Shown here in pieces: positions 1 through 33,421 of a stretch of DNA of 64,000 nt; position 1 is the first letter of the stretch; each line of letters starts with the position of its first letter. The translations under genes were made by a program, and so were the position numbers. The notes under the pieces were generated by a model. The model made no database searches. It worked only from the letters and a program-made list of their open reading frames with translations, and was not told the origin of the DNA. Source of the DNA: Ostreococcus lucimarinus (taxonomy: Eukaryota); NCBI GenBank assembly GCA_000092065.1, contig CP000596.1; one strand, given 5' to 3'.

Positions 1-183
1 CCCTAAACCCTAAACCCTAAACCCTAAACCCTAAACCCTAAACCCTAAACCCTAAACCCTAAACCCTAAACCCTAAACCCTAAACCCTAAACCCTAAACC
101 CTAAACCCTAAACCCTAAACCCTAAACCCTAAACCCTAAACCCTAAACCCTAAACCCTAAACCCTAAACCCTAAACCCTAAAA
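1..183. repeat. Telomere: (CCCTAAA)n, about 26 perfect tandem copies (C-rich strand of TTTAGGG plant-type telomere), at a left chromosome end
   Basis: Perfect 7-mer array starts at base 1. The C-rich strand reads 5' to 3' inward from the end, which is the orientation expected at a left telomere. Confidence 0.97.
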
Positions 184-530
184 ATCGAACCCTAGTCCTC
201 CAAACCCTAGTTTACCCCGCCCTAACTCCAGTAGTCCTCCACCCAAAGCCAGTATCACACATTTCCAAAAAACCCAAACCGCGGCCTACGCCCGCGACGA
301 CGTAAAGGTCCGGGTCGCCGCCGGCACCCAGAGTTCCGCGAAACGCGCGCGTACACAGATGCAAATGCGTGTTTCATGCGTGTACGCAAAATTCCAGCGT
401 CGTCGACCGCCAGTGTAGTGGTTTCGGTGACCCCTTTACTCGCGCAACTTTCAGGGCGGCAAAAGCGTCATGTTCCAGAGACACTGCTAACCCTAGTTTC
501 TAACCCTAGTTTCTAACCCTAGTTTCAGGG
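184..530. repeat. Subtelomeric telomere-associated sequence with degenerate telomere-like units
   Basis: aaccctag, ccctaa and ccctag variants at 190-260; three tandem copies of taaccctagtttc at about 488-527; no ORF with recognisable coding content before 1532. Confidence 0.7.
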
Positions 531-1531
531 AGGCGCGTGCGGGCGACGCGCGCTGGGAGACGACGCGGGACGACGACTGCGACGTGGGTCAATCGTTTTG
601 AATTCCTGTTTTTTCTATTTTTAGCCCGCGATCGTTCATTCGCGATCCCCGTGTGGTTCGCGCATGTGCATCTACACGCGCTCGCTCGCGAATGTCACAT
701 CGCGCAAACGAGAAAACGCCTAAAAAACGCTCGAGAAACGGCACTGTTCGGCGCGCGCGTCCCGGCGCGACGGGGCGTCGCGCGTGTCGTTTCGAGCACA
801 TATACTCTCGCGCGTGCGCCTTACACGTTTTCGCGTGCGTCGCTCGTGCGCGCGCGCTCACACGCGCGCGAAGCGGCGACATTTCGCGCGGTTCCGAGGT
901 GCGTTTCCGCCCGAGGGTGTCTCGGCGTCGCGACTGCGAGTCGCGAGGCGCCAGTGAGCACCGCGACGAGCTCGTGGTGAGCGTTCGACCTCGCAGGTCC
1001 GCGCGTGCGTTCGCGTGTACGCGTTCCGCGGCGCTCGCGGGCGGCGCCGGCGCGCGGCGCGCATGCACTCGCGACTGATTTCCCGAGGCGCGCGCGTTTC
1101 GCGAAGTCGAGGTTCTCGTGCCGACCTCACTGCACGGCGCGCGCTCCATTACGCAGGCGTAACCTGTGCGACGACACGCGCGATGAACTCAGCCGGACGC
1201 GGCATCCATCCACGCTCACGTGCGCCACCTCGTCGCAGTTTCACTCCGCGGCGCGGACGACGCGGGCGCCTCGGAGACGCCGCGCGTGTTCGACGCGTTG
1301 GATTGGATCCAACGCGCGGTGACGGGCCGGAAACGCGCGCGCGACGATGCGGATGCGAAAGATCTGGGAAGCGACAGAGACCAGCGACGGCGGCTGCACG
1401 ACGCGGACGGCGCGGATGTTGGGCGATTCGTCGCGCAGATTCCGGTAGTAGGTCACAGCGACGCGCGACCTCACAGCGACGCCCGTTGGCGTCCCCGTTC
1501 CCACGATCCAGCTCGCTCGGCGATTTTTCAT

Positions 1532-3061
1532 TCACTTGGTGTCCGCACCGACGGTGTTCCAAGGAATGGACACGTTCGCGAATACGTTTTTGGTGCACTC
1601 CGCGCGGCGGCGGCGGAGTTGACGTTCGACGCCGAGCGCGGTGGCCCAAAACGCGTCGCCGACGAGCGGTCGGCGACGGTAGAGAAACAACGGCAACACC
1701 ATCTGTAGTCGCATGTGCATCGCGTCCCAATCCGAATTCGCACGCTCCAACGCGTCTGGTATCGTTTGAAAGTCCCTCTCGGGTATCATCACCGAAAACG
1801 CCGACCAATCGACGAGCCAACTGAGCGGTAATTCATAGTCGTCGGCGAGAATCACCGGCACGCATCCAAAGAGCATGGACTCGATCAATCGCGGACTGTG
1901 CACGCGCGTCCCGCGCATGTACAGGCAGAATCTCGAGTTTTTCATCTTCGCGGTGTATTCTTTCGACGTGGAACAACTCGGACCCAAGTCATACATCTGG
2001 CCGCGCGTATTTTTGAGCAAGAAGTCCGCGATCTCGCGACGATTCGGAAACGAATTGATCGCCCCTCGAAACATTAATAGAGTCTCTCTCTCGGCGTTGG
2101 CGAACGCTCTCCGTCTCGCCGCGTGCAGCGGTATCACAAAACTCAAACTATTGATGGCGCTGACGTCCTTATCGGGATGAAACGGTGCTTGCGAAGTGTG
2201 CGGACGCGAGGGTGAGATTGTCTCGGACGACGCGACGACAAACGTCGTCGATAAGATGACATCCTTGTGTCGCAACAGAGACATCGTGCTCGAACCGTGA
2301 GTAATGACGGAAAAGCGACTGCAACTTTCACCGCTCCTCACCCACGCGTTCGGATCTTCGGCCGACGCGTAGTCTATCGCGTGTTTCACACCTCGAGCCA
2401 TCGCGCTTCGACCTTTTTCCGAAAAATGTCTCAACTTGTCCATGACGCGATCAAAGTACGGATTTAAAGGCAACAAGTAGGCGTCGTTGACGTCATCGAC
2501 GCTCGAAGCGCACGATGAAAACGGACCGTTTTGGAAGTTTCGATTCAGAAAGTCCTCCACGTCGAACGCACGATTCCAGTTCATCGCCACTCGTCGAATG
2601 AGAGCGTTGCGCACTCGCGTCCGCGTCGGTTGCCTGAACGATTTCACGCAGAGTCGTCGTGGTAAACTTTCCATGGATGCACACAGCCCGGTGAAACCAT
2701 CGTATCCCGAAGAGCGTCGTAAAGGAAAATCTTTACCATCACCGACGCCACCGTCCGAGCACATCGCGCGAAACGTTGGAAATCCGTACTCATCGAATCG
2801 CGTCGCCGCGTCTCGACGATATCCGCCGCCGCCGCGACGACCCACGAGATGCCTCATCAAAGACCACGCGTCGAGCAGCTGCCCCTCACTCGCCGACCGG
2901 AACTCCCGCACGTGCACACTTCGCACGCCCACCGACATCATCGCGAGGGACGTGATCGCGGAAAATAGAAACAACGCCATCAACACGACGCGCAGTGACC
3001 GCATGGTGACGCTCACGCGCGCGCCCAGCCGCTCGAACGCGCGCACCACACCCGGGCTCAT
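1532..3061 (-). CDS. Exostosin-family (GT47) glycosyltransferase, type II membrane protein
   Basis: 509 aa. N-terminal signal anchor (VVLMALFLFSAITSLAMM). C-terminal exostosin motif RFCLYMRGTRVHSPRLIESMLFGCVPVILADDYELP. ATG at 3059-3061 and TGA stop at 1532-1534. Confidence 0.8.
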   Translation of the reverse strand: MSPGVVRAFERLGARVSVTMRSLRVVLMALFLFSAITSLAMMSVGVRSVHVREFRSASEGQLLDAWSLMRHLVGRRGGGGYRRDAATRFDEYGFPTFRAMCSDGGVGDGKDFPLRRSSGYDGFTGLCASMESLPRRLCVKSFRQPTRTRVRNALIRRVAMNWNRAFDVEDFLNRNFQNGPFSSCASSVDDVNDAYLLPLNPYFDRVMDKLRHFSEKGRSAMARGVKHAIDYASAEDPNAWVRSGESCSRFSVITHGSSTMSLLRHKDVILSTTFVVASSETISPSRPHTSQAPFHPDKDVSAINSLSFVIPLHAARRRAFANAERETLLMFRGAINSFPNRREIADFLLKNTRGQMYDLGPSCSTSKEYTAKMKNSRFCLYMRGTRVHSPRLIESMLFGCVPVILADDYELPLSWLVDWSAFSVMIPERDFQTIPDALERANSDWDAMHMRLQMVLPLFLYRRRPLVGDAFWATALGVERQLRRRRAECTKNVFANVSIPWNTVGADTK

Positions 3062-3273: not shown

Positions 3274-6200
3274 TCATTTCTTTCTACACGAAAGCGACCT
3301 TCGCGCCGATTTGAGTTGTTGATTCAGCGACGTCTGCACGTCGAAGGCGCCGAATATATCAAGATGGTATCTACCCGATTTTTCGAGCGACTCCACTTCG
3401 GCTCGACCGAGTATGTCATCGAGCGCGCCACGCACGGACGTCTCGATTCGCACGTCCCCGCATACGTACACGTGTCCGCCTCCTTTAATCAAATCGCGAA
3501 TCCCGTCGCCGTTCTCGCGCATCACGGCGTCGACGTACATTTTCGGCAAGTCTGGCTCGCGAGAATACCCGACGAGGTACGCTGTCAACGCGCCATTTTC
3601 GGCGGCGATTTCCATCTCGTCGCGATACAACTGATTTCCTCGCGTTCGACATCCCACAATAAGCCATGCGTCGCTCCTTTGTTCAGGCGCCATGCACGCG
3701 CGATGATCGACGAACCCCTTAAAGGGCGCTATCCCAGTCCCGCCAGCGATCATCAGAATCGGCACCTTCGGAGACCGCGGCAATCGAAACGCCGGCGCCG
3801 GGAGCATCTCGACCATGACGTTTGTGCGCAAGGGCAACGTCGCCAAGAAATCAGAACAGAAGCCGAGATGCATGTGCGAATTCACGCCGTCGCCATTCCT
3901 GTACGTCACACGTCCGACGGTTAAAGAAAACACGTTATTTCCGACGGCGCGCGGCGAGCTCGAGACGGAGTAATAACGCGCGCGAAGTTTTGGTATCTTG
4001 AGAAGAATGTCTCGCAGCATTTCGATGCCCACCGCCTTGTCACGGCGATGCGTCGCGCTCAACGTCGGAAATTGATCGAAGAGTGTAGATATCCGCGCGC
4101 CAGTCTGCGAAATCCACTCTCGCCGCGCGTCTTCATCGAGTGCCAAGTTTTCCATTTGTGCTTTGCACGTTTCGTCGTCGACGTAATGCGCGAGGGCTTG
4201 CAGCAACTCCGCCGATGGCTCTTTGTTGATATCCAGCACCGTAGTGAAAAGATAACCGGCACCGACTGGGTTCGGAATGCTCGAGTCGAGTGAATTCTCA
4301 AAGATTTCTGATTCGTCCAGAGGAACTAGTTCGATTTGATCGTCAAAGTCGATGCCAAAGTGCGCGACGAAATAGCGCGCGCGCGCTTCGCTCGTTCGAG
4401 GGTACACTGAAACATGATCGCCGGGTTTGTAAAACTCGGTGTCTCGATGCCCGCGCGGTAAGGTGAGTGTCACGGCGACAGTGTTCAATCTACTACCGTC
4501 GCCGAGCACGACTCGATCGGTTAACGTCGCCGGCACGCCTGCTCGATGGTCAGCCGTGTGGTCTCGTCCGTGCACGTCACGGCGACGCACGTTCAAGACA
4601 AACGACGGTTGAAGCCGCGCCCCGCTTACAAGCTGATTGGTCAAAAGATCGCGCAGCGACGCGGTAATGCGCTCGTGTTTGTGGAACCAATTGAACAGAC
4701 TCTTCGTGAACTCGTGCACGCTGGCGTCTTCACCCTCGAGCTGATCGGCGCAAACCATAGGAAACATCTCTTTCGCGTCGGCTTCGCGGAGTGCCATCGC
4801 GAACTGCTTGCCACCGCCGCAAAACTTTGGATAGGCGCGCGAGCCGAACGCGCACAACGCGAAATTTTTGTCTTTCAACGCCTCGCGCGCTCCGTCACTA
4901 CGGCACCACTCGATGAACCTTTCCGACCCCGTCGGAACTGCCCCCGACCCCGTGGTCGACGCGAGCACGATTACGAATTCAACGCGCTCGAGCGCTTTCA
5001 AAAGGTCGTCACTTCGCAGGTCAGGATTCGCGACGTTGATTGGCCGAATCATCGGAAATCTTTGCCTCAAGAACAACCACAGCCATGACGCGCGTGCTTG
5101 CGTGCGGCCTCCGTCCGAAGCGTACAGAATAAGCGCTCCCTTTACTCGCACCATGCGCTTGCGCCACTTCGCCGCCGCGACGGCGACGTGCATCGCCGCT
5201 TGAGACAGCCCAGAAGCGGTGAAGAAGTTGGCGCGCCGCGCGCGAATCACGAGTTGATTCAGACTCATACCGCCGACGAGCGCCGGTTTCAGCGTATACT
5301 CCGTCATCTTGTTCAAGCCGAGATAAATCGAAGACGTCGAAGCCGCGGTGGGGGGTACGATCCACTTCCAATTTCCAGGCGCATAGCCGCGATCTTTCAT
5401 CTCATCCGCGTACCACTGCGCAAAGGATTCGGCGCACGTGTGATGGTCAGCGATGCTCACACGCGCGCGCTTGAAAGAATACAGAACGGCGTAATTTATC
5501 GCAGCGAGCGCGTGATCTTTCCATAAAGTTTCGTTCGTAGACGTGTCGATGCCCATCGCTTTGGCAATTCGTGGCGCGAAATTATATCGCGACTCGTCGC
5601 AAAAGTTGCGCGTCGCTATCTCAGTCACCATGTACCAACCGTTGAAGGGCGCGGCCGTGTAATGCAAACCACCGAGATCGAGCGTGATGTTCGACACGGC
5701 TGGGATGCCATACCAGCGCAATCCGAGCTGCGAGATGCCAGGAATCGTAGGGTGGTGAATCGGTACCTCGAGCAAGCACTCGTCGGGAAGTTCGTAAATG
5801 CTCGGCGGCGTCGAAGGACTGATTTGCACCACAATCGGAAGCGGATCGAACGGAGTCTCCGCACCGCCTTTCGGTACCCAATCGAAATACTTCTTCACGG
5901 AGTCGGTGAAGTGCAACTCTGCGGGGTCGCCGATTGTGGTTTCGTTCGGTCCTCGATGGCCCGCGTATCGAATGAGTTGCGAATTCCAAACGCGCGGTCC
6001 GTCTTCGGTGTTCGGCGTCTGCGGTTTAAACACCGTCATGAGCACCGGAATGTGATCACCGCCTATTCCACGCCTTAAGTGTTCCTTAATAGCCTCAAAC
6101 ATCTCGTCGTTCGTCTCGGCGTCTCGAGCGTCGATGACGTCGAGCGTCGCCCAGAATTTTCTATTAATGCACTTCGGCGCGTTGCGCCACGCGATTCGCG

Positions 6201-6669
6201 CGCCCCAACGAATCTCGTCCAGCGTGTGCGCATACGTCCCCGTGGTGTCGATGGAGTCGAGTATGTGTTTTACTCGTGCATCCGTAATCTTTTCATCAAT
6301 CCCTCGTTCGTGACCGTACAACCGCGCGTACTCTTCGGCTTCTCTTCTCAGTTTGTTTCCCGCGCTCTCGCGCTTCGTCTTCGCCGCTTCCAACGGCTCG
6401 CACCCGCGCGGGCACACCGCGGGACGCTTTCCGTGCACGTATCCCGGGTACGGATCCACGGACACCTGCGTTCGAGCGTCAATCATCGCCAAATCGTCGT
6501 CAATCGCCGCGCTAACGGTTTCAACTCTGTTCTTCGTCGCGTCGCGTCGACGCACCGTGCCGTGCCCGAACGGACATCGTTGCACGGGTAATCGCGCATC
6601 GTCCGTCGCGCCGTCGTCGTCGTCGCCGTCGTCGTCGCCGCGTCGACCCCGCTTCGCGCGCGACGCCAT
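3274..6669 (-). CDS. NOS: Nitric oxide synthase: heme oxygenase domain, FMN/flavodoxin domain and FAD/NADPH reductase domain in one chain
   Basis: 1131 aa from ATG at 6669 (the track ORF begins with GTG at 6741). Oxygenase motifs WRNAPKCINRKFWATLDVIDARD (heme Cys) and GWYMVTEIATRNF; basic stretch KWRKRMVRVK between the domains; flavodoxin FGSRAYPKFCGG; FAD motif RYYSVSSSP; NADPH motifs GGTGIAPFKGF and YVCGD. Confidence 0.88.
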   Translation of the reverse strand: MASRAKRGRRGDDDGDDDDGATDDARLPVQRCPFGHGTVRRRDATKNRVETVSAAIDDDLAMIDARTQVSVDPYPGYVHGKRPAVCPRGCEPLEAAKTKRESAGNKLRREAEEYARLYGHERGIDEKITDARVKHILDSIDTTGTYAHTLDEIRWGARIAWRNAPKCINRKFWATLDVIDARDAETNDEMFEAIKEHLRRGIGGDHIPVLMTVFKPQTPNTEDGPRVWNSQLIRYAGHRGPNETTIGDPAELHFTDSVKKYFDWVPKGGAETPFDPLPIVVQISPSTPPSIYELPDECLLEVPIHHPTIPGISQLGLRWYGIPAVSNITLDLGGLHYTAAPFNGWYMVTEIATRNFCDESRYNFAPRIAKAMGIDTSTNETLWKDHALAAINYAVLYSFKRARVSIADHHTCAESFAQWYADEMKDRGYAPGNWKWIVPPTAASTSSIYLGLNKMTEYTLKPALVGGMSLNQLVIRARRANFFTASGLSQAAMHVAVAAAKWRKRMVRVKGALILYASDGGRTQARASWLWLFLRQRFPMIRPINVANPDLRSDDLLKALERVEFVIVLASTTGSGAVPTGSERFIEWCRSDGAREALKDKNFALCAFGSRAYPKFCGGGKQFAMALREADAKEMFPMVCADQLEGEDASVHEFTKSLFNWFHKHERITASLRDLLTNQLVSGARLQPSFVLNVRRRDVHGRDHTADHRAGVPATLTDRVVLGDGSRLNTVAVTLTLPRGHRDTEFYKPGDHVSVYPRTSEARARYFVAHFGIDFDDQIELVPLDESEIFENSLDSSIPNPVGAGYLFTTVLDINKEPSAELLQALAHYVDDETCKAQMENLALDEDARREWISQTGARISTLFDQFPTLSATHRRDKAVGIEMLRDILLKIPKLRARYYSVSSSPRAVGNNVFSLTVGRVTYRNGDGVNSHMHLGFCSDFLATLPLRTNVMVEMLPAPAFRLPRSPKVPILMIAGGTGIAPFKGFVDHRACMAPEQRSDAWLIVGCRTRGNQLYRDEMEIAAENGALTAYLVGYSREPDLPKMYVDAVMRENGDGIRDLIKGGGHVYVCGDVRIETSVRGALDDILGRAEVESLEKSGRYHLDIFGAFDVQTSLNQQLKSARRSLSCRKK

Positions 6670-6891
6670 CGCGACCGAGTGTGGGGCGGCAACGACCCGA
6701 CGACCGACTCGGCGCGCGGTCGGGCGTTTCGGTCCCGTCACTGCGCGTCGCGCGGACGCGTCGCGCGTCGCGTCGCGTCACCGCCGCGCGAGCGAATCGA
6801 GCGTCGGCGTCGCGGGGCGGGAGACGAAAGTCGCGACGAACGGTGGACCGCGTCCGCGACGGCGCGCGCGCGAACGGCGACGTCGCGCGCG

Positions 6892-8841
6892 ATGACGTCT
6901 TCGAAGGCGATGGCGGTGATGATGTGCGTCGCGATGCGTGTTTTTGACGCGCGCGGGGCGCTGGCGCAGACACCGACGTACGAGACGATCGCGACGAACG
7001 GCACGTTCACGTCGACCCGAACGCTGGCGCACGATGAGTACGCGTACTTTCAGTTTGCCATACCGGACGCCTCGAGCGACGCGGACGTCGCGTTGGAAGT
7101 CATCGACGGCGACGCCGATTTATACGTCAAACGACCGTGCACGTCGTCGACGTGCACGGCACCGAGTGAAAACTGGTGGAATTGGCGAAGTGTGCACAGC
7201 GCGGGCAGGGATGAAGTCTTCATACACGCAGAGGTATTGTCGTCGAACCAAATATCCGTCGGCGCGGACAAGTTTTTCCTAGTCGCCGTCCACGGATGGA
7301 CGATGCACGGGGCAACGTTCAAGTTGTCGGTCGAAATCGTGCCCGAGAATAGATTGTTGAATCCCGCGCAGACAGCCGCGCTCGAGGGCATTTTTACGAA
7401 ATGCTGCTCGTCGACGACGTCGTGCCCGGTTTGGAAAACTGCCAGAAGATACGGTTACGATCCCTGCCACTGGGGCTTGGCTGGATGCACGAAGGCGAAC
7501 GAGACGAAATGGTTGAATCTGCAGGGGCTGTACTTGGATTGCGAGCTCGGTTCATCCGACGTCAGCGCATTCGGGTCGTCGTTGCGTAGGCTGTATGTCG
7601 GACAAAACACGGCGCTGAAACTCGCCGACGAAGACGCGACGATTGGATTGTTGAAGGTGCTTCCGAATTTGGTAGAAATAGACGTCACCGGAATCGATCT
7701 ACAGGGGCGAACCGTGGATGGACTGTGTCACGCATCGGTGAGCGCGAACTTGACGCGTATCGGTTTGAACACGGCGAACGTGTCGGGTGCGTTGTCACAG
7801 TGCGTGGTGGATAAACCTCAGTTGATGGATCTCGCGATGCAGTACAATTACTTGACCGGAACGCTGCCATCACTACCATCGTCGTCCAACTTACGAACGT
7901 TGTATCTCCACGAGCAAAGGTCGGCAGACAGCATCAGCGGCGTTCTACCGCCGTCGTACGTCAGCTCGACGACGCTCGAGCACTTGTGGCTGACCAATCT
8001 GAAACTCTCGGGCGCGTTGCCCGACGTGTTTTCGCCGACAGGCGTGTGGCGAGAGATATACTTGAACAAAAATGCATTTAACGGTACGATTCCAGCGTCT
8101 CTGGGCTCGCAGCGATATCTGCCGGTGCTCGACTTGTCCTTCAACGCGTTCTCAGGAGCGGTTCCCGGCGGTATTTACGATCACCCGAACCGCACGCACG
8201 TTGGCATCAAGTCGAACAAATTGACGCAAGTGAGCGTGTCCTCAATCCACAGCCCGCCGGGCGCGTCGCTGATACGTCTCGATGCGTCCAAAAACGTAGT
8301 CAACGAGACGGGCGTGTCGACGATATTCACTCGAATGCCGAAGCTGCAGTATCTCTACTTGAACGACAATGAACTTCACGGCGTCATCTTGGACGACTCG
8401 ACGACGCCGGTTTGGGCGCTTCGGCAATTAGACGTGAGTACAAACTATCTCGAAGGCGAAATTCCTGGCGCCTCGTATTGGGGTAAAATCTTCACGTCGA
8501 GCGCGCCCGCGGGACGAAAGTTTGACATATCGCAAAACCTGTACACCAGAGCCCCATCCTGGTTCGGCGCTTACACCGGCGATTCTGGTCTGACGATCAC
8601 ACTGGGCAGCGGGTTGTACGATCCATCCTCCGATCCCGACGCCGCGCTCGCGTCTGCGAATGCAAAGCCTACGGTGTCGAAATTCATGCTAGCGCTGTTG
8701 CTCATAACGCTCTTCGCCATGAGTGGACTGGGCCTGTACTTGGGCATTTATATCTTGGTGCAACGGCGAAATCGGGCGCACGCGAATCGCTTTAGGCAGT
8801 TTCATGACTTTGACCAAGGTCAAGGCGTCGAGATGGCGTAA
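6892..8841 (+). CDS. Leucine-rich-repeat receptor-like membrane protein with an N-terminal PPC-like domain
   Basis: 649 aa from ATG at 6892. Signal-peptide-like N-terminus (MTSSKAMAVMMCVAMRVF). EVIDGDADLYV pre-peptidase-C-terminal-like motif. Plant-type LRRs (LTGTLPS, NAFNGTIPASLGS, LDLSFNAFSGAVPGGI). C-terminal TM helix LALLLITLFAMSGLGLYLGIYILV followed by a basic tail. Confidence 0.6.
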   Translation: MTSSKAMAVMMCVAMRVFDARGALAQTPTYETIATNGTFTSTRTLAHDEYAYFQFAIPDASSDADVALEVIDGDADLYVKRPCTSSTCTAPSENWWNWRSVHSAGRDEVFIHAEVLSSNQISVGADKFFLVAVHGWTMHGATFKLSVEIVPENRLLNPAQTAALEGIFTKCCSSTTSCPVWKTARRYGYDPCHWGLAGCTKANETKWLNLQGLYLDCELGSSDVSAFGSSLRRLYVGQNTALKLADEDATIGLLKVLPNLVEIDVTGIDLQGRTVDGLCHASVSANLTRIGLNTANVSGALSQCVVDKPQLMDLAMQYNYLTGTLPSLPSSSNLRTLYLHEQRSADSISGVLPPSYVSSTTLEHLWLTNLKLSGALPDVFSPTGVWREIYLNKNAFNGTIPASLGSQRYLPVLDLSFNAFSGAVPGGIYDHPNRTHVGIKSNKLTQVSVSSIHSPPGASLIRLDASKNVVNETGVSTIFTRMPKLQYLYLNDNELHGVILDDSTTPVWALRQLDVSTNYLEGEIPGASYWGKIFTSSAPAGRKFDISQNLYTRAPSWFGAYTGDSGLTITLGSGLYDPSSDPDAALASANAKPTVSKFMLALLLITLFAMSGLGLYLGIYILVQRRNRAHANRFRQFHDFDQGQGVEMA

Positions 8842-8936: not shown

Positions 8937-10022
8937 TTAAAATCTATGCGCGAGTTTCGCCGTTTGTTTCGCGACGAGCTCGGCCGCGGCGTCGTTGACG
9001 ACGAAATCGTGCTTGACGCTGAGATCATCGACTGTGAACACGCCCACGTCTAACGCTGCGAGAGCATCACGCTGGTGAAACGGTGCCCAGTGATCGTCGT
9101 GTGCGTACACCGCGACAAAGCGCCCGTTATCCGCGCCTCGGCGAACGAGCGCGCACTCGCTCACCGGCGTCGTCAATTGCGCGAACTCGGTCCGCCCCAT
9201 GAATACCATATTTATCAGACTTTGCCATCTCAGCCATGCGCTGGTGATGTCCGCGGCGGCGCTATCCATGGATTTTGTCACAGTATTCTTCAACAACGCC
9301 AATCGAACGCCCGGAGCGACGAATCGTAACGCGTCTAAAAATCGTCCAAGCGCGTGCACAACGACGGATAATCGAGTCACGAAACTCAGACTCGATTGCA
9401 GCGTGCTTTGCGTGTTGACGTGAAGAAACGGCATCAAGCCCACCACACCGCTCACCCTGTCAAATCCGAGCTCAGACATCGCGTGAAGCGCCAAGTGAGC
9501 TCCGATACTGTGACCGACGACGACGACGGGCTCTGGCCCTTCGTCGTCGCAACATCGGTCGATGTATTCGCATACGTGCGTCTTTTGCTCATCCAACGAG
9601 AACCACTCGCTACGTCCACGGCGTTCGGCCTCGGTGTGTCCCAAATAACCGACGACGTCGACCCTCACGGCGTCCAACTCGTCGCACAGCGTTTTCGCGA
9701 ACGTCGCGTAAAACGCCGCGCAACCGGGATTACCTGGCACCACGAAGACGCGCGGGCCTTTCCCGTCAGCGCGTCGCGCGCGAATGATTTCGTACTCACA
9801 CCCTGTGAGCGTGGACGACGACGTCGAAGCCGACGCGGACGACGCGGCGCGGTCGCGAACGATGTCGCGCGAGACTCTGGTGAAACTTTCCACAACCGTT
9901 AAAGACGGCGACGCCATCGTCGTCAGCGCGCGTCCACGACGTCGGGTCGGACGCGTGAACGACGATGACACCGATGGTGATCTCGTGTGCGACAGCGCGC
10001 GCGCGAGACGGCTCGAAACCAT
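8937..10022 (-). CDS. Alpha/beta hydrolase of the lipid-droplet-associated hydrolase (LDAH/UPF0554) type
   Basis: 361 aa. VFVVPGNPGCAAFY motif followed by the nucleophile elbow VVVVGHSIGAHLAL. Real ATG at 10020-10022. Confidence 0.6.
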   Translation of the reverse strand: MVSSRLARALSHTRSPSVSSSFTRPTRRRGRALTTMASPSLTVVESFTRVSRDIVRDRAASSASASTSSSTLTGCEYEIIRARRADGKGPRVFVVPGNPGCAAFYATFAKTLCDELDAVRVDVVGYLGHTEAERRGRSEWFSLDEQKTHVCEYIDRCCDDEGPEPVVVVGHSIGAHLALHAMSELGFDRVSGVVGLMPFLHVNTQSTLQSSLSFVTRLSVVVHALGRFLDALRFVAPGVRLALLKNTVTKSMDSAAADITSAWLRWQSLINMVFMGRTEFAQLTTPVSECALVRRGADNGRFVAVYAHDDHWAPFHQRDALAALDVGVFTVDDLSVKHDFVVNDAAAELVAKQTAKLAHRF

Positions 10023-13141: not shown

Positions 13142-15697
13142 ATGGCGCGCGCGCGAGGTCGCGCGACGCGATGGACGACGATCGCGCTCGCGTGCGTCGT
13201 GAGCGCGATGTGCGTGTTCGGAGGCGCGACGAACGGTGCGTGGACGGAAAGATGAGCGAACGATGCGCGAAAGAAAGATGTCGACGAAGCTCGACGAAGA
13301 TTTCCGACCGCGCGCGCGATCGAGTCGCGACGCGCGGGCGGCGCGGCGCGAGCGAGCGCGAGATGCGTGAACGATGACTGACCGAGCGCACACGTCGACG
13401 ACGCAGTGCGCGCGGAGGAAGACGCGACGACGGACGCCGGCGCGGCGAAAATCCCAGACTTCGCCCCGGGGGCGGAAAAGTTTGAGTTCCAGGCCGAGGT
13501 CTCGCGATTGATGGACATCATCATCAACTCGCTGTACTCGAACAAGGATATTTTCTTGCGCGAATTGATCTCGAACGGCTCGGATTCTTTGGACAAGATT
13601 CGATTCATGTCGCTCACCGACAAGGAGCAATTGGGAGGCGGCGAAAACGCCGATCTCGACATTCGCATCAAGGCTGACAAGGAGCGCAAGGTGCTCACGA
13701 TTCGCGACCGAGGCATCGGGATGACGAAGGACGACTTGATGAACAACCTCGGTACGATCGCCAAGTCCGGAACGTCCGCGTTTTTGGACCAAATGGCGTC
13801 TGGCGGCGACATGTCTTTGATCGGACAGTTCGGCGTCGGTTTCTACTCCGTCTACCTCGTCGCCGACTTTGTCGAAGTGCGCTCGAAACACAACGACGAC
13901 GACAAGCAATGGGTGTGGCAATCTAAGGCTGATGGCAACTTTGCCATCTCCGAGGACGAAGGCGAACCGCTCGGCCGCGGGGTGGAGATCAACATCTACC
14001 TCAAGGAAGAAGCGCAAGAGTACCTCGAAGAGACCAAGCTTCAAGCTCTCGTCGAGCGTTACTCCGAGTTCATCAACTTCCCCATCTACCTGTACAACTC
14101 CAAGGAAGTCTCTGAAGAAGTACCCGTCGAAGCCGGCGACGAGGATGAAGAAGCTGACGTCTCCGGTGACGACGCCGAAGACGACGAGGAAGGCGACGAT
14201 GAGGAAGGCGACGAAGACGAAGAGGACGACGAACCGAAGACGAAGACCGTGACCAAGACCGTTTGGGATTGGGAACGCCTGAACGACGTCAAGGCGATCT
14301 GGCTCCGAAGCACGAACGAAGTTGAAGAGGAAGAGTACACCAAGTTCTACCAAGCTCTCGCCAAGAACTCTGAAGAGCCGCTCGCGTATTCGCACTTCAA
14401 GGCGGAGGGCGACGTCGAATTCAAGGCCATTCTCTACATCCCCGAACGACCGTCGCCGGACTACTACGACAACTACTACAGCCGCGCGAGCGCGCTCAAG
14501 TTGTACGTCCGCCGTGTCTTCATCTCTGACGAGTTCGACGAGTTGTTGCCCAAGTATTTGAGCTTCATTAAGGGCATCGTCGACTCGGACACGCTCCCCT
14601 TGAACGTGTCTCGCGAAACTCTCCAGCAACACACGAGCTTGAAGACGATCAAGAAGAAGCTCGTTCGCAAGGCGCTCGACATGATTCGCAAGCTCGCGGA
14701 AGAAGGCGGCGATGCGGAAGATGACGATGCCAAGCCCGAAGGCGAAGATGACGCGGCGACGAAGGACGAGCCGAAGTATGAAAAGTTCTGGAAGTCGTTC
14801 GGCAAGGCGATCAAGCTCGGGATCATCGAAGACGCGAGCAACCGCGTGCGCCTCGCCAAGCTTCTTCGATTCCAAACCTCGAAGTCCGACGGCAAGCTCG
14901 TCTCTTTGGAGCAGTACGTCGAACGCATGAAGGAGGGCCAAAAGTCGATTTATTACATCACCGGAGAATCCATCGACGCGCTCAAAAACTCTCCGTTCCT
15001 CGAGAAGCTCATCTCCAAGGACTTCGAAGTCATCTACTTCACCGATCCCATCGATGAGTACACCATGCAAAACTTGACTGAATTCGATGATTTCAAGTTC
15101 TCCAACGCGAGCAAGGAAGACCTCAAGTTTGGCGACGCGGACGACGACGAAAAGGCTCGCTTTAAGAAGACGAAGGAGGCGTTCAAGTCTTTCACCACGT
15201 GGTGGAAGAGCAAGCTTCCGGACACCATGATTGAAGCGGTCAAGGTCTCCAACCGCCTCTCCACCACCCCGTGCGTCGTCGTGTCGTCCAAGTACGGCTG
15301 GTCCGCAAACATGGAACGCATCATGAAGGCGCAAGCCATGGGCGACGAATCCCGTCACGAGTACATGCGCGGCAAGAAGACGCTCGAAGTGAACCCGAGA
15401 CACCCGATGATCGCGGCGCTCAAGGAACGCGCGGCTACGGATCCGGACTCCGAAGAAACGGAAACGTTGGCCAAGCTCATGTTCGAAACCGCGATGTTGG
15501 AATCTGGTTTCTCGTTCGACAAGCCTCAAGAGTACACCTCTCGCGTTTTCGACTTGTTGAAGTCGAACATGGGCATCGAAAAGGATGCCGAACTCGTCGA
15601 CGAGACCCAGTTCCACTTGCCGGAAGAAGAAGACGAGGAAGATAAAAAGGAAGAAACCAAGGAAGAAACCAAGGAAGCTCCGAAAGACGAGCTCTAA
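13142..15697 (+). CDS. HSP90B: ER-type HSP90 (GRP94/endoplasmin); two exons: 13142..13235 and 13407..15697
   Basis: Exon 1 encodes MARARGRATRWTTIALACVVSAMCVFGGATNG (signal peptide) and is followed by an in-frame stop, so an intron is required. The join is phase 1, donor GTGCGT, giving ...TNG|VRAEEDATTDAG.... Exon 2 carries the HSP90 ATPase motifs (LRELISNGSDSLDKIR, GQFGVGFYS) and a C-terminal KDEL. 794 aa. Confidence 0.85.
13236..13406 (+). other. Spliceosomal intron of the GRP94 gene (171 nt)
   Basis: Donor GTGCGT. ACTGAC branch motif at 13377-13382, 23 nt upstream of the CAG acceptor. Confidence 0.8.
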
Positions 15698-31963: not shown

Positions 31964-33421
31964 ATGCCGCCCGATGAATCGCTCGAGGCGCGCGACGCGA
32001 CGAAAGACGTCGCGGACGACGCCCGCGCGTCGTGGTGGCGCGAGGAACTGCGCGCGGTGGCGCACATTTGTCCACCAATCATGACGCAGTTCGGGTCGCA
32101 GCAGTTGTTGATGGCCACGCAGCTCGTGTACTGCGGAAACGAATCGCGCGAGGCGCTCACGACGATGACGATAGCGGCGACGATGTGGAACATGCTCTGG
32201 ATGGCGATCACGGGCGCCGGAGGGACGATGGACACGCTGGGAAGCCAGGCGCACGGCGCGGGGGACGCGCGCGCCGTCAAGTCGTGGGCGCTGCTCACGA
32301 CGTGCGCCATCACCGCGTTTTGCGTGCCCGCGAACGCGATTTTAGCGGCGGGGAAAGAGATCGCGATCGGGGTGTTCAAGGCTGATAAATCTAGGGCTGG
32401 AGAGATTCGCGACTGCGCGCTCATCATGTGCGGGAGTTTTTATCCACTCGCGGCGACTCTGGGTTTACAGAAATACTTGAGCGTTCGGCGGAAAGTCGGA
32501 GCCGTGGGGCTGACTTCGGTGGCGACGCTGTTCGTAAACATCGCGTTTCATCACGCCCTCGTCAAGCAGCACAAAATGGGAGTCATCGGTAGCTCGATCG
32601 CCATGGTCGCGGCTCGGGCGATGAACCTCGCGATGTTGCTCGCGTACGTCTGCGTGGACGAGCGATGGTGGGCGACGGGTGCGCTTGACGAATGGCGCTC
32701 GGCGAAGGCGGCGATAACCAGGGACATGGTCGCACGCGTCGCGCACTTGTCGACTCAAGGCGTCATCATGGTGTTCGGCGAGGCTTTCTCGTTTGAAGTC
32801 ACCGTCGTTTTGGCTGCGCAACTGGGCGAAGTATCCCTCGGCGCGCACATGGTGATGCTCAATATTTGTACGATGACCTTCATGATGGGACCGATGTCGT
32901 TCGGCACCGCGGCATCGATTAGAGTTGGAAATTTATTAGGTATGCGAGACCCGCGCGGAGCGAAGCGTTCGGCGTGGTTAATAACGTCGATGTCTCTCAC
33001 GTTTATGGCGGGGTGCGCGTTTATGATACTCTTCGCGATTAAACCTATCGCGAGGCTGTACACTGGAAACGACCCCGAGATCACGGCTACCCTCATCAAG
33101 ATCGCCCCTTACGCCGCCGCTTTCCAGATATTCGACGCCTCGCTCGGATGCTGTAACGGCATCCTTCGCGCGTGCGGGAAACAGGCGTTCATCGCGAAGA
33201 GCAATCTCGCCTCTCTGTGGTTGTGCGGTTTGACCTCGGGCGCTTTAATCACCTTCGTCGGCGACGAAGGGGTGAAGGGTTTATGGGTGGGACTCATGAT
33301 CGGCGTCGGGATGGCGGGTTCGTTTCTCGCATCGGTGGTGTACCGTTTAGACTGGCAACACGAATCATTTTTAGCCACCCGCGCGGCGACCAACGTCTTT
33401 CGCGGCGGCGCGGCGCTGTAG
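31964..33421 (+). CDS. MATE (multidrug and toxic compound extrusion) family transporter
   Basis: 485 aa. 12 predicted TM helices. N-terminal WWREELRAVAHICPPIMTQFGSQQLLMATQLV is typical of the MATE/DTX family. Confidence 0.85.
   Translation: MPPDESLEARDATKDVADDARASWWREELRAVAHICPPIMTQFGSQQLLMATQLVYCGNESREALTTMTIAATMWNMLWMAITGAGGTMDTLGSQAHGAGDARAVKSWALLTTCAITAFCVPANAILAAGKEIAIGVFKADKSRAGEIRDCALIMCGSFYPLAATLGLQKYLSVRRKVGAVGLTSVATLFVNIAFHHALVKQHKMGVIGSSIAMVAARAMNLAMLLAYVCVDERWWATGALDEWRSAKAAITRDMVARVAHLSTQGVIMVFGEAFSFEVTVVLAAQLGEVSLGAHMVMLNICTMTFMMGPMSFGTAASIRVGNLLGMRDPRGAKRSAWLITSMSLTFMAGCAFMILFAIKPIARLYTGNDPEITATLIKIAPYAAAFQIFDASLGCCNGILRACGKQAFIAKSNLASLWLCGLTSGALITFVGDEGVKGLWVGLMIGVGMAGSFLASVVYRLDWQHESFLATRAATNVFRGGAAL

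What the first reader, a model, noticed from the sequence alone, without database searches (positions are those of the whole stretch)
3274..6669. Subtelomeric animal-type nitric oxide synthase
A complete NOS (heme oxygenase + FMN + FAD/NADPH in one 1131-aa chain, heme-Cys motif WRNAPKC, basic stretch KWRKRMVRVK between the oxygenase and FMN domains) lies 3.3 kb from the telomere. Full-length NOS is absent from land plants and known in only a few green algae (Ostreococcus and Bathycoccus species). Subtelomeres are hotspots for acquisition and turnover, so the position bears on where this gene came from.
Basis: partly seen in the sequence, partly recalled or inferred. Interest (0 to 1): 0.55.

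Follow-up and report, generated by a model that had tools for sequence, protein, structure and literature searches.

The report
Known Ostreococcus lucimarinus nitric oxide synthase
This is the already catalogued nitric oxide synthase gene of the tiny marine green alga Ostreococcus lucimarinus; it does lie next to a chromosome end, but it is an old resident of that end and not a recent arrival, so the finding is ordinary.

Summary
An uninterrupted ORF at 3274-6669 (- strand) encodes a complete NOS: oxygenase, FMN, FAD and NADPH domains. Its 3' end is 3.09 kb from a 26-copy CCCTAAA telomere tract. The window is the start of a 428-kb chromosome record of Ostreococcus lucimarinus CCE9901, and the gene is published as XP_001421937.1.

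One correction: 30 of the 1131 codons (6466-6555) are almost certainly an in-frame, stop-free 90-nt intron. It is homologous to the annotated O. tauri intron, so the protein is about 1101 aa.

The idea that the subtelomeric position says something about origin is not supported.
- The O. tauri orthologue is also about 5 kb from a telomere, in the same terminal gene block, whose order is scrambled between species.
- NOS divergence between species (58-68 %) matches its neighbours, and codon usage is unremarkable.
- Wild alleles show purifying selection.
- All Mamiellales NOSs form one clade (100 %) inside an all-algal NOS clade (100 %) that excludes animals.

"Animal-type" therefore describes the architecture and not the ancestry. 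The rarity claim is out of date, because NOS is now known in many algae.

Verdict: a real feature that is already known, of low interest.

The parts
1..182 (.). Telomere tract, 26 x CCCTAAA
183..1531 (.). Subtelomeric spacer with no convincing gene. It contains a 13-bp x3 telomere-like repeat at 487-526 and is length-polymorphic among natural alleles.
   Evidence: L002-L005 lack parts of 372-1278
1532..3061 (-). Exostosin/GT47 glycosyltransferase gene (509-aa ORF; RefSeq model XP_001421936.1 is 490 aa). It is the only gene between NOS and the telomere, and it has no orthologue in the corresponding block of O. tauri, L008 or L013.
3274..6465 (-). NOS exon 2, including the stop codon at 3274-3276. 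It encodes everything from VSVDPYPGYVHG to the C-terminus.
6466..6555 (-). Probable 90-nt phase-0 intron (GTGCGTCGAC...CAG). It is in frame and stop-free, so an ORF reading runs through it.
6556..6669 (-). NOS exon 1 (MASRAK...RCPFGHGT, 38 codons)
5278..6357 (-). Oxygenase (heme) domain, ORF aa 105-464: heme Cys167, Val325, Trp345, Glu350, Arg354, Trp434 and Trp436. Just upstream lies Cys86-X3-Cys90.
5140..5217 (-). Oxygenase-FMN linker at the position of the animal calmodulin-binding helix (aa 485-510, includes KWRKRMVRVK). It is only partly conserved.
   Evidence: PMC3701330
4723..5130 (-). FMN (flavodoxin) domain, aa 514-649, without the roughly 40-aa autoinhibitory insert of nNOS/eNOS
3847..4434 (-). 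FAD-binding domain, aa 746-941 (RYYSVSS at 898-904)
3430..3753 (-). NADPH-binding domain, aa 973-1080 (GTGIAPF 977-983, CGD 1070-1072)
6892..8841 (+). LRR-protein gene, head-to-head with NOS across a 222-bp intergenic region (the ORF is open from 6679). The pair is conserved in O. tauri and L008.

Best explanation
The feature is the nitric oxide synthase gene of Ostreococcus lucimarinus CCE9901 (published as XP_001421937.1). It is the orthologue of the biochemically characterised O. tauri NOS.

Inferred mechanism, from conserved residues and from homology to solved NOS structures and to OtNOS:
- A homodimeric flavo-haem enzyme passes electrons from NADPH to FAD, then FMN, then a Cys167-ligated haem.
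- The haem oxidises L-arginine, held by Glu350 and Trp345, to citrulline plus NO.
- A pterin or folate cofactor stacks on Trp436.

Its regulation should resemble iNOS more than nNOS or eNOS. There is no autoinhibitory insert, the calmodulin site is only partly conserved, and the zinc motif is Cys-X3-Cys instead of Cys-X4-Cys.

The gene has two exons with a 90-nt in-frame intron, giving a protein of about 1101 aa. It lies 3.1 kb from the telomere because it belongs to a terminal block of about 17 kb (NOS, LRR, LIDHydrolase, epimerase, syntaxin, HSP90, an unknown ~280-aa gene, FtsH). Ostreococcus species share the content of this block and have repeatedly inverted its order. The gene is an old, vertically inherited resident of that chromosome end and not a recent subtelomeric acquisition.
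For: Identity of the organism and gene:
- Two window proteins are verbatim O. lucimarinus CCE9901 RefSeq entries on a 428,333-bp record. The neighbouring gene is XP_001421936.1.
- XP_001421937.1 is cited as the O. lucimarinus NOS in PMC4648414.

Enzyme:
- All four Pfam domains are present, and the protein matches full-length nNOS at E 1.8e-136.
- Cys167 aligns with rat nNOS Cys415, Glu350 with Glu592, Trp345 with Trp587, Arg354 with Arg596, Trp436 with Trp678 and Val325 with Val567 (ungapped blocks).
- The FAD and NADPH motifs are intact, and the autoinhibitory insert is absent.
- OtNOS is a functional NO producer with Km(Arg) 12 uM (PMC6409986; PMC8728061).

Selection: five wild alleles are 99.8 % identical. 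They differ by 4 third-position changes, 1 non-synonymous change and 1 codon indel.

Position:
- Four of five independent metagenome contigs end in telomere repeats at the same place.
- The O. tauri orthologue is about 5.1 kb from its telomere, with the same LRR, HSP90, LIDH and syntaxin neighbours.
- L008 and L013 share the block NOS, u280, FtsH, TFIID, M76, GUN4, M50, 2OG.

Age:
- NOS identity between species (65/68/58 %) lies within the range of its flanking orthologues (41-87 %).
- Its codon-usage distance to the other window genes is among the smallest.
- The Mamiellales clade has 100 % support, and the all-algal clade excluding animals also has 100 %.
- The N-terminal motif RCP(F/L)xHG...PYPGYVHG...C-x3-C is shared with ulvophyte NOSs.

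Intron.
Against: - No experiment here or in the papers I could read tests the O. lucimarinus enzyme itself. Activity is inferred from 65 % identity to OtNOS.
- GC3 of NOS (0.668) is the lowest of 26 window genes (z = -1.8). However, other long genes and the adjacent GT47 and LIDH genes are similar, and GC3 falls with gene length (rho -0.45).
- The intron is in frame and stop-free, and I had no transcript data, so retention cannot be excluded.
- The trees are neighbour-joining on 336-961 columns. The deep algal relationships are not resolved, and published trees report incongruence with the species tree (PMC8728061).
- For L008 and L013 the distance to a telomere is unknown, because the contigs break in simple repeats.
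Confidence: 0.9

Rival explanations
1. NOS was recently acquired or shuffled into this subtelomere in the O. lucimarinus lineage, by horizontal transfer or ectopic subtelomeric exchange.
For: - The gene is 3.1 kb from the telomere.
- It has the lowest GC3 in the window.
- The gene between NOS and the telomere (GT47) is lineage-specific at this site.
- The terminal spacer is polymorphic.
- One ENA contig continues past GT47 into other genes.
Against: - Orthologues sit in the same gene block in O. tauri, L008 and L013.
- NOS divergence equals that of its neighbours.
- Codon usage is ordinary.
- The Mamiellales form a monophyletic clade with 100 % support, and the three closest species group at 96-99 %.
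- An intron is shared at the same position with O. tauri and L008.
Confidence: 0.03
2. The gene is old within the Mamiellales but entered their ancestor by ancient lateral transfer from another eukaryote, not by vertical descent from the green-algal ancestor.
For: - In the trees the Mamiellales clade is a long branch, sister to the other algal NOSs and not nested among chlorophytes. Diatom and dinoflagellate sequences mix with the green algae.
- The literature notes incongruence between NOS trees and species trees and invokes HGT or losses (PMC8728061).
Against: - The all-algal clade has 100 % support.
- N-terminal hook motifs and indel states are shared specifically with ulvophyte NOSs.
- The best hits outside the Mamiellales are green algae.
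- The present subtelomeric position carries no information about an event that old.
Confidence: 0.2
3. The telomere-proximal position is functionally selected, for example for chromatin-based or telomere-position control of an enzyme whose product is toxic. That would explain why two species keep NOS within 3-5 kb of the telomere despite different gene orders.
For: - NOS is 3.1 kb from the telomere in O. lucimarinus and about 5.1 kb in O. tauri, with different genes in between.
- In Bathycoccus it is 21 kb from a record end.
- Contigs of the L008 and L013 types break close to NOS on the telomere side.
Against: - In two other Mamiellales-like lineages NOS is at least 19-33 kb from any contig end and has unrelated neighbours.
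- The whole block is terminal, so proximity can be a passive result of inversions within it.
- There are no expression or chromatin data.
Confidence: 0.08
4. The protein is a NOS homologue whose main chemistry or regulation differs from animal NOS. It could use tetrahydrofolate instead of BH4, be independent of calmodulin, or have a different dimer interface because of Cys-X3-Cys.
For: - Cys-X3-Cys replaces Cys-X4-Cys, and the calmodulin helix keeps only three of its four hydrophobic anchors.
- Reviews state that Ostreococcus lacks BH4 synthesis and that its cofactor is unknown (PMC3701330).
Against: All residues that contact substrate, haem or pterin are conserved. OtNOS makes NO from arginine. 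This rival refines the main explanation and does not replace it.
Confidence: 0.3

Closest known systems
Ostreococcus tauri NOS (OtNOS; CEG00478.1 / OUS45267.1; Foresi et al. 2010)
   Same: - It is the orthologue: 65 % identity over 1067 aa.
- It has the same four domains, the same Cys-X3-Cys, no autoinhibitory insert and the same C-terminal tail.
- Its intron is at the same position.
- It has the same LRR head-to-head partner and the same terminal chromosome block, and it is also telomere-adjacent.
   Different: - The order of genes in the block differs. u280, epimerase and FtsH lie between NOS and the telomere in O. tauri, whereas GT47 does so here.
- The intron is 155 nt and shifts the frame in O. 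tauri, but is 90 nt and in frame here.
- The N-terminal acidic run is longer here.
Mammalian inducible NOS (NOS2)
   Same: - Single-chain oxygenase-FMN-FAD/NADPH architecture.
- The haem Cys, the Arg-binding Glu and Trp, the pterin Trp and the distal Val are all conserved.
- There is no autoinhibitory insert in the FMN domain.
   Different: - About 31-33 % identity.
- Cys-X3-Cys in place of Cys-X4-Cys.
- A different N-terminal hook (DPYPGYVHG).
- Only a partial calmodulin 1-5-8-14 motif.
- It lacks a roughly 10-aa insert near the C-terminus.
- It falls outside the animal clade.
Other algal NOSs (Bryopsis, Ostreobium, Klebsormidium KnNOS1, Chlorokybus, Mesostigma, centric diatoms)
   Same: - They share a 100 %-supported clade with it.
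- They share the motifs RCPxxHG, PYPGYVHG, C-x3-C, WRNAPKCxNR and GNWKWI.
- About 33-35 % identity.
   Different: Many of them carry extra ankyrin or globin modules, which are absent here. The Mamiellales form their own long branch.
Cyanobacterial syNOS (Synechococcus PCC 7335; PDB 9q05)
   Same: An oxygenase plus reductase in one chain, matching at E 1.4e-134.
   Different: syNOS has an N-terminal globin and other extensions (1468 aa). It groups with the cyanobacteria, outside the eukaryotic clades.

Membership tests
Nitric oxide synthase (EC 1.14.13.39), full-length eukaryotic type | NOS oxygenase domain (PF02898) above the curated threshold | tested here: met
   419.8 bits against a cut-off of 22.7, aa 105-464
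Nitric oxide synthase, full-length eukaryotic type | Proximal haem-thiolate cysteine in WRNAxxC, aligned to rat nNOS Cys415 | tested here: met
   Cys167 aligns with nNOS residue 415 in an ungapped block and is conserved in all relatives
Nitric oxide synthase, full-length eukaryotic type | Arginine-binding Glu and Trp (nNOS Glu592, Trp587) and pterin-stacking Trp (nNOS Trp678) | tested here: met
   Glu350, Trp345 and Trp436
Nitric oxide synthase, full-length eukaryotic type | Fused C-terminal diflavin reductase (FMN, FAD, NADPH modules) | tested here: met
   PF00258, PF00667 and PF00175; RYYSVSS, GTGIAPF and CGD
Nitric oxide synthase, full-length eukaryotic type | Makes NO and citrulline from L-arginine | not testable with these tools
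   Shown for the O. tauri orthologue only (cited in PMC6409986 and PMC8728061)
Animal (metazoan) NOS specifically | Zinc-tetrathiolate Cys-X4-Cys motif | tested here: not met
   Cys86-Pro-Arg-Gly-Cys90, which is Cys-X3-Cys, as in all Mamiellales and ulvophyte sequences. This agrees with PMC3701330.
Animal (metazoan) NOS specifically | Canonical 1-5-8-14 calmodulin-binding helix between the oxygenase and FMN domains | tested here: inconclusive
   The aligned segment keeps Leu, Ala and Val at positions 1, 5 and 8, but has Lys at position 14 (with Trp next to it) and lacks the N-terminal basic cluster
Animal (metazoan) NOS specifically | Phylogenetic placement within the metazoan NOS clade | tested here: not met
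   A rooted NJ tree places it in an all-algal clade (100 %) that excludes animals
Constitutive Ca2+-regulated NOS (nNOS/eNOS type) | Autoinhibitory insert of about 40-45 aa in the FMN domain | tested here: not met
   There are no residues in the insert columns, as in iNOS. In the region where nNOS has 52 residues, the query has 12.
Recently acquired subtelomeric / horizontally transferred gene | Absent from, or not syntenic in, close relatives | tested here: not met
   Orthologues lie in the same block in O. tauri, L008 and L013
Recently acquired subtelomeric / horizontally transferred gene | Composition or codon usage deviating from resident genes | tested here: not met
   Codon-usage distance is 0.099, among the smallest of 26 genes. 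GC3 is low but shared with other long and neighbouring genes.
Recently acquired subtelomeric / horizontally transferred gene | Phylogeny nests the gene in a foreign donor clade | tested here: not met
   The Mamiellales are monophyletic at 100 % and lie within the algal clade at 100 %

The most novel reading that the evidence does not exclude
The terminal block of about 17 kb on this small chromosome is a conserved 'end module' in Ostreococcus, and its internal order is repeatedly inverted. NOS, travelling as a head-to-head pair with a fast-evolving LRR gene, is kept within a few kb of the telomere. The reason would be that telomere-proximal chromatin contributes to the light- and growth-phase-dependent control of NO production.
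Probability: 0.08. Interest if true: 0.45.

Novelty: already known. Interest (0 to 1): 0.14.

Why it matters
It matters little beyond bookkeeping. The gene has been a catalogued member of the Ostreococcus NOS family since 2010. It is relevant to the long debate over whether the plant lineage has a NOS.

This check adds three small things:
- The subtelomeric location is real and is shared with O. tauri, but it does not inform on the gene's origin.
- A plain ORF reading overstates the protein by 30 residues, because a conserved intron happens to be in frame.
- The Mamiellales NOSs root with other algal NOSs and not with animal ones, so 'animal-type' should be read as an architectural label only.

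Tried and rejected
- GC3 as a sign of foreign origin. NOS has the lowest GC3 of 26 genes. I rejected this as a signal because GT47, LIDH and other long genes are similar, GC3 correlates with gene length, and a codon-usage distance test is unremarkable.
- The first, unrooted NJ tree seemed to give an 87 % 'Mamiellales + animals' split. I rejected that reading because, with three clans meeting at one node, the split only says that the other algae form a clan. I re-did the tree with bacterial outgroups.
- Testing whether L008 and L013 are also telomere-adjacent. Their contig starts are simple repeats with no telomere sequence. The alternative contigs L014 and L015 break even closer to NOS. This stays unresolved.
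- An exact look-up of the spliced 1101-aa product, to confirm the RefSeq model.
- Using allele differences to test the intron. No polymorphism falls inside it, so the test is uninformative.
- The interstitial CCCTAAACCCTAAA in O. tauri L006. It lies in a promoter-like gap. From general knowledge it looks like a plant-type 'telo-box' and not a relic chromosome end. I did not pursue it.
- Foresi 2010 (PMC3015112) is not held in the library, so I took its content second-hand from papers that cite it.
Full report
**1. Observation**

The window opens with 26 perfect CCCTAAA repeats at 1-182. Shuffled sequence gives no chance matches. On the minus strand an ORF runs from 6741 to 3274. Its first ATG is at 6669, which gives 1131 codons.

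Pfam finds NO_synthase (aa 105-464, E 1e-125), Flavodoxin_1 (514-649), FAD_binding_1 (746-941) and NAD_binding_1 (973-1080). Against solved structures the best matches are full-length rat nNOS (8t1j, E 1.8e-136) and the cyanobacterial syNOS (9q05). WRNAPKC lies at aa 161-167 and KWRKRMVRVK at aa 501-510. The stop codon is 3,091 bp from the telomere tract.

**2. Whose gene it is**

Exact-sequence look-ups identify two window proteins as RefSeq entries of Ostreococcus lucimarinus CCE9901, on a 428,333-bp record. They are XP_001421938.1 (hydrolase, 8940-10022) and XP_001421816.1 (MATE transporter, 31964-33418). The GT47 gene next to NOS is XP_001421936.1.

The NOS of this species is cited as XP_001421937.1 in Di Dato et al. 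2015 (PMC4648414). Foresi et al. 2010 reported NOS genes in both O. tauri and O. lucimarinus (as summarised in PMC6409986). The gene is therefore already known. The verbatim 1131-aa translation is held only by metagenome sources, among the 40 of 146 cluster members that were read. That fits a deposited model that is spliced differently.

**3. A correction to the gene model**

Every relative, including the ulvophytes Bryopsis and Ostreobium, has the contiguous motif RCP(F/L)xHG(T/S)-VxxDPYPGYVHG. The window ORF has 30 extra residues between the two halves.
- The extra 90 nt (6466-6555) begin with GTGCGTCGAC and end with CAG.
- The O. tauri gene has the identical exon end and 5' splice site (CACGGCACG|GTGCGTCGAC). 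It then has a 155-nt frame-shifting intron that its annotated 1094-aa model removes.
- The unnamed relative L008 has a 166-nt frame-shifting intron at the same point. L009 and L011 show ...CAG| or stop codons immediately upstream of the same exon-2 start. L013 has no intron there.

The O. lucimarinus intron happens to be a stop-free multiple of three, so an ORF reading runs through it.

**4. What the protein does (inferred)**

Ungapped alignment blocks with rat nNOS give the following equivalences. All are conserved across the Mamiellales sequences.

| This protein | Rat nNOS | Role |
|---|---|---|
| Cys167 | Cys415 | haem thiolate |
| Val325 | Val567 | distal pocket |
| Trp345, Glu350, Arg354 | Trp587, Glu592, Arg596 | substrate and haem pocket |
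| Trp434, Trp436 | Trp676, Trp678 | pterin site |

The FAD (RYYSVSS) and NADPH (GTGIAPF, CGD) motifs are intact. The FMN domain lacks the roughly 40-aa autoinhibitory insert of nNOS and eNOS, so in this respect it resembles iNOS.

The segment aligned to the calmodulin helix keeps hydrophobic residues at positions 1, 5 and 8 but has Lys at position 14. The zinc motif is Cys-X3-Cys (Cys86 to Cys90) and not the animal Cys-X4-Cys. These peculiarities match what reviews describe for Ostreococcus NOS: a partially conserved CaM site, Cys-X3-Cys, and no BH4 pathway so the cofactor is uncertain (PMC3701330).

The most likely mechanism is the canonical one: electrons pass from NADPH to FAD to FMN to haem, and arginine is oxidised to NO and citrulline. 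Regulation would be weakly CaM-dependent or CaM-independent. Activity has been demonstrated only for the O. tauri orthologue.

Five wild alleles recovered from metagenomes are 99.8 % identical. They differ by four third-position changes, one non-synonymous change and one Asp-codon indel. That pattern is expected for a functional gene.

**5. Does the subtelomeric position bear on origin?**

*Synteny.* Reading from the telomere, the window has GT47, NOS, LRR, LIDHydrolase, epimerase, syntaxin, HSP90, an unknown ~280-aa gene (u280), FtsH, TFIID9, then GUN4, M50, 2OG oxygenase and URO-D.
- In O. tauri (CAID01000017.2) the order from the telomere is FtsH, epimerase, u280, NOS, LRR, HSP90, LIDH, syntaxin, TFIID9, then M76. 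Genuine telomere repeats lie about 5.1 kb beyond NOS.
- Two unnamed Ostreococcus-like lineages carry NOS, u280, FtsH, TFIID, M76, GUN4, M50, 2OG and URO-D in a row. They are L008 (NOS 68 % identical) and L013 (58 %).
- In all four lineages the FtsH-to-URO-D run points away from the telomere or the contig start. The same genes therefore occupy the terminal block, in scrambled order.
- The LRR-NOS head-to-head pair (222-286 bp apart) moves as a unit in three of them.
- Whether L008 and L013 are also telomere-adjacent cannot be told, because their contigs break in simple repeats.
- Further away, Bathycoccus has NOS 21 kb from the end of an 888-kb record, with other neighbours.
- Two more Mamiellales-like lineages have it at least 19-33 kb from any contig end, with unrelated neighbours.

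*Rate.* NOS identity between O. lucimarinus and O. tauri, L008 and L013 is 65, 68 and 58 %. That lies inside the spread of the flanking orthologues: LRR 41-45, u280 44-52, LIDH 50-63, epimerase 66-70, FtsH 76-86 and HSP90 86-87 %.

*Composition.* GC3 of NOS is 0.668, the lowest of 26 genes (mean 0.751, z = -1.8). However, GT47 (0.680), LIDH (0.690) and another long gene (0.671) are similar, and GC3 falls with gene length (rho -0.45, p = 0.02). The codon-usage distance to the pooled other genes is among the smallest.

*Phylogeny.*
- All nine Mamiellales-like NOSs form one clade (100 %), and O. lucimarinus, O. tauri and L008 group together (96-99 %).
- I rooted the tree with twelve bacterial and archaeal NOS oxygenases fetched for the purpose, plus syNOS. 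In that tree the Mamiellales clade sits in an all-algal clade with 100 % support. That clade holds green algae, streptophyte algae, diatoms and a dinoflagellate, and the animals are separate.
- Shared motifs and indel states with ulvophyte NOSs agree with this placement.
- These are NJ trees. The branching inside the algal clade is not resolved, and the literature reports incongruence there. An ancient transfer at the base of the Mamiellales therefore cannot be excluded, but the present chromosomal position says nothing about it.

*Conclusion on position.* The gene is an old resident of a conserved chromosome-end block. The parts of this end that really turn over are the GT47 gene and the 1.3-kb spacer. 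GT47 has no orthologue in the corresponding blocks of the relatives. The spacer has indels among wild alleles.

**6. Comparison with what is known, and novelty**

The closest known entity is OtNOS, of which this is the orthologue. Architecturally it resembles mammalian iNOS. It fails two animal-specific criteria, Cys-X4-Cys and placement in the metazoan clade. The calmodulin motif is inconclusive.

The statement that full-length NOS is known in only a few green algae is out of date. The homology search alone returns Bryopsis, Ostreobium, Apatococcus, Micractinium, Chlorella, Chlorokybus and Mesostigma. Reviews list NOS in chlorophytes, streptophyte algae, red algae, diatoms and dinoflagellates.

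No paper in the searchable library combines Ostreococcus, NOS and 'subtelomeric'. The positional observation may therefore be unreported, but it turns out to carry no information about origin.

**7. Verdict**

This is a real feature, correctly recognised, and already known. The interpretive lead (position tells us about origin) is not supported. Interest is low.

Noticed in passing
window 6466-6555 (- strand): A 90-nt in-frame, stop-free intron in the NOS gene (GTGCGTCGAC...CAG). It is homologous to the annotated O. tauri intron and to a 166-nt intron in L008. ORF-based and metagenome gene callers read through it and add 30 spurious residues.
   Followed up: yes
window 1532-3061 (- strand): An exostosin/GT47 glycosyltransferase is the only gene between NOS and the telomere. 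It has no orthologue in the corresponding terminal blocks of O. tauri, L008 or L013. It, and not NOS, is the lineage-specific subtelomeric gene here.
   Followed up: partly
window 183-1531; L002-L005: The spacer between GT47 and the telomere differs by indels of several hundred bp among natural O. lucimarinus alleles, while GT47 and NOS are 99.7-99.8 % identical. It also contains a 13-bp x3 telomere-like repeat (CTAACCCTAGTTT) at 487-526.
   Followed up: partly
ENA sample ERZ4113076, 55.6-kb contig (no DNA available): One contig carrying the same NOS and GT47 continues past the point where the telomere starts in the window. It runs into a 1407-aa AMP-binding/PP-binding/reductase gene and a GT25 gene. 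This is either a strain with an extended chromosome end or a chimeric assembly.
   Followed up: no
window 6670-6891; L006 9715-10000; L008 9101-9342: NOS and a fast-evolving LRR-protein gene (41-45 % identity between species) are head-to-head across 222-286 bp in three species. They stay together through the rearrangements of the block, so they may share a promoter.
   Followed up: partly
L016 (CAZXGO010000191.1, labelled 'uncultured Chitinophagales bacterium' MAG): This 3.9-kb contig encodes a NOS oxygenase 78 % identical to the window protein. It is evidently a Mamiellales (L008-type) contig mis-binned into a bacterial MAG.
   Followed up: partly
L007 (Bathycoccus prasinos OZ117168.1), protein P0162 / CAL6445273.1: The deposited 1065-aa model lacks the 15-residue segment WYMVTEIATRNFGDE, which contains the catalytic Glu and is present in all other sequences. 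This is probably a mis-modelled small 'intron' or a sequence error.
   Followed up: no
L006 268-306 (O. tauri, between the Peptidase_M76 gene and a 149-aa gene): AAACCCTAAACCCTAAAA plus a further CCCTAAAA lie in an intergenic region 18 kb from the chromosome end. From general knowledge this looks like a plant-type telo-box promoter element and not a relic telomere.
   Followed up: no
L014 1-316 and L015 1-191: Independent metagenome contigs of the L013-type and L008-type lineages both break within about 200-300 bp upstream of NOS. This suggests population-level structural variation at that boundary.
   Followed up: no
window 13406-15697 (+ strand): The HSP90 gene has by far the most biased codon usage in the window (z = 13.7 against sampling), consistent with very high expression.
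   Followed up: no
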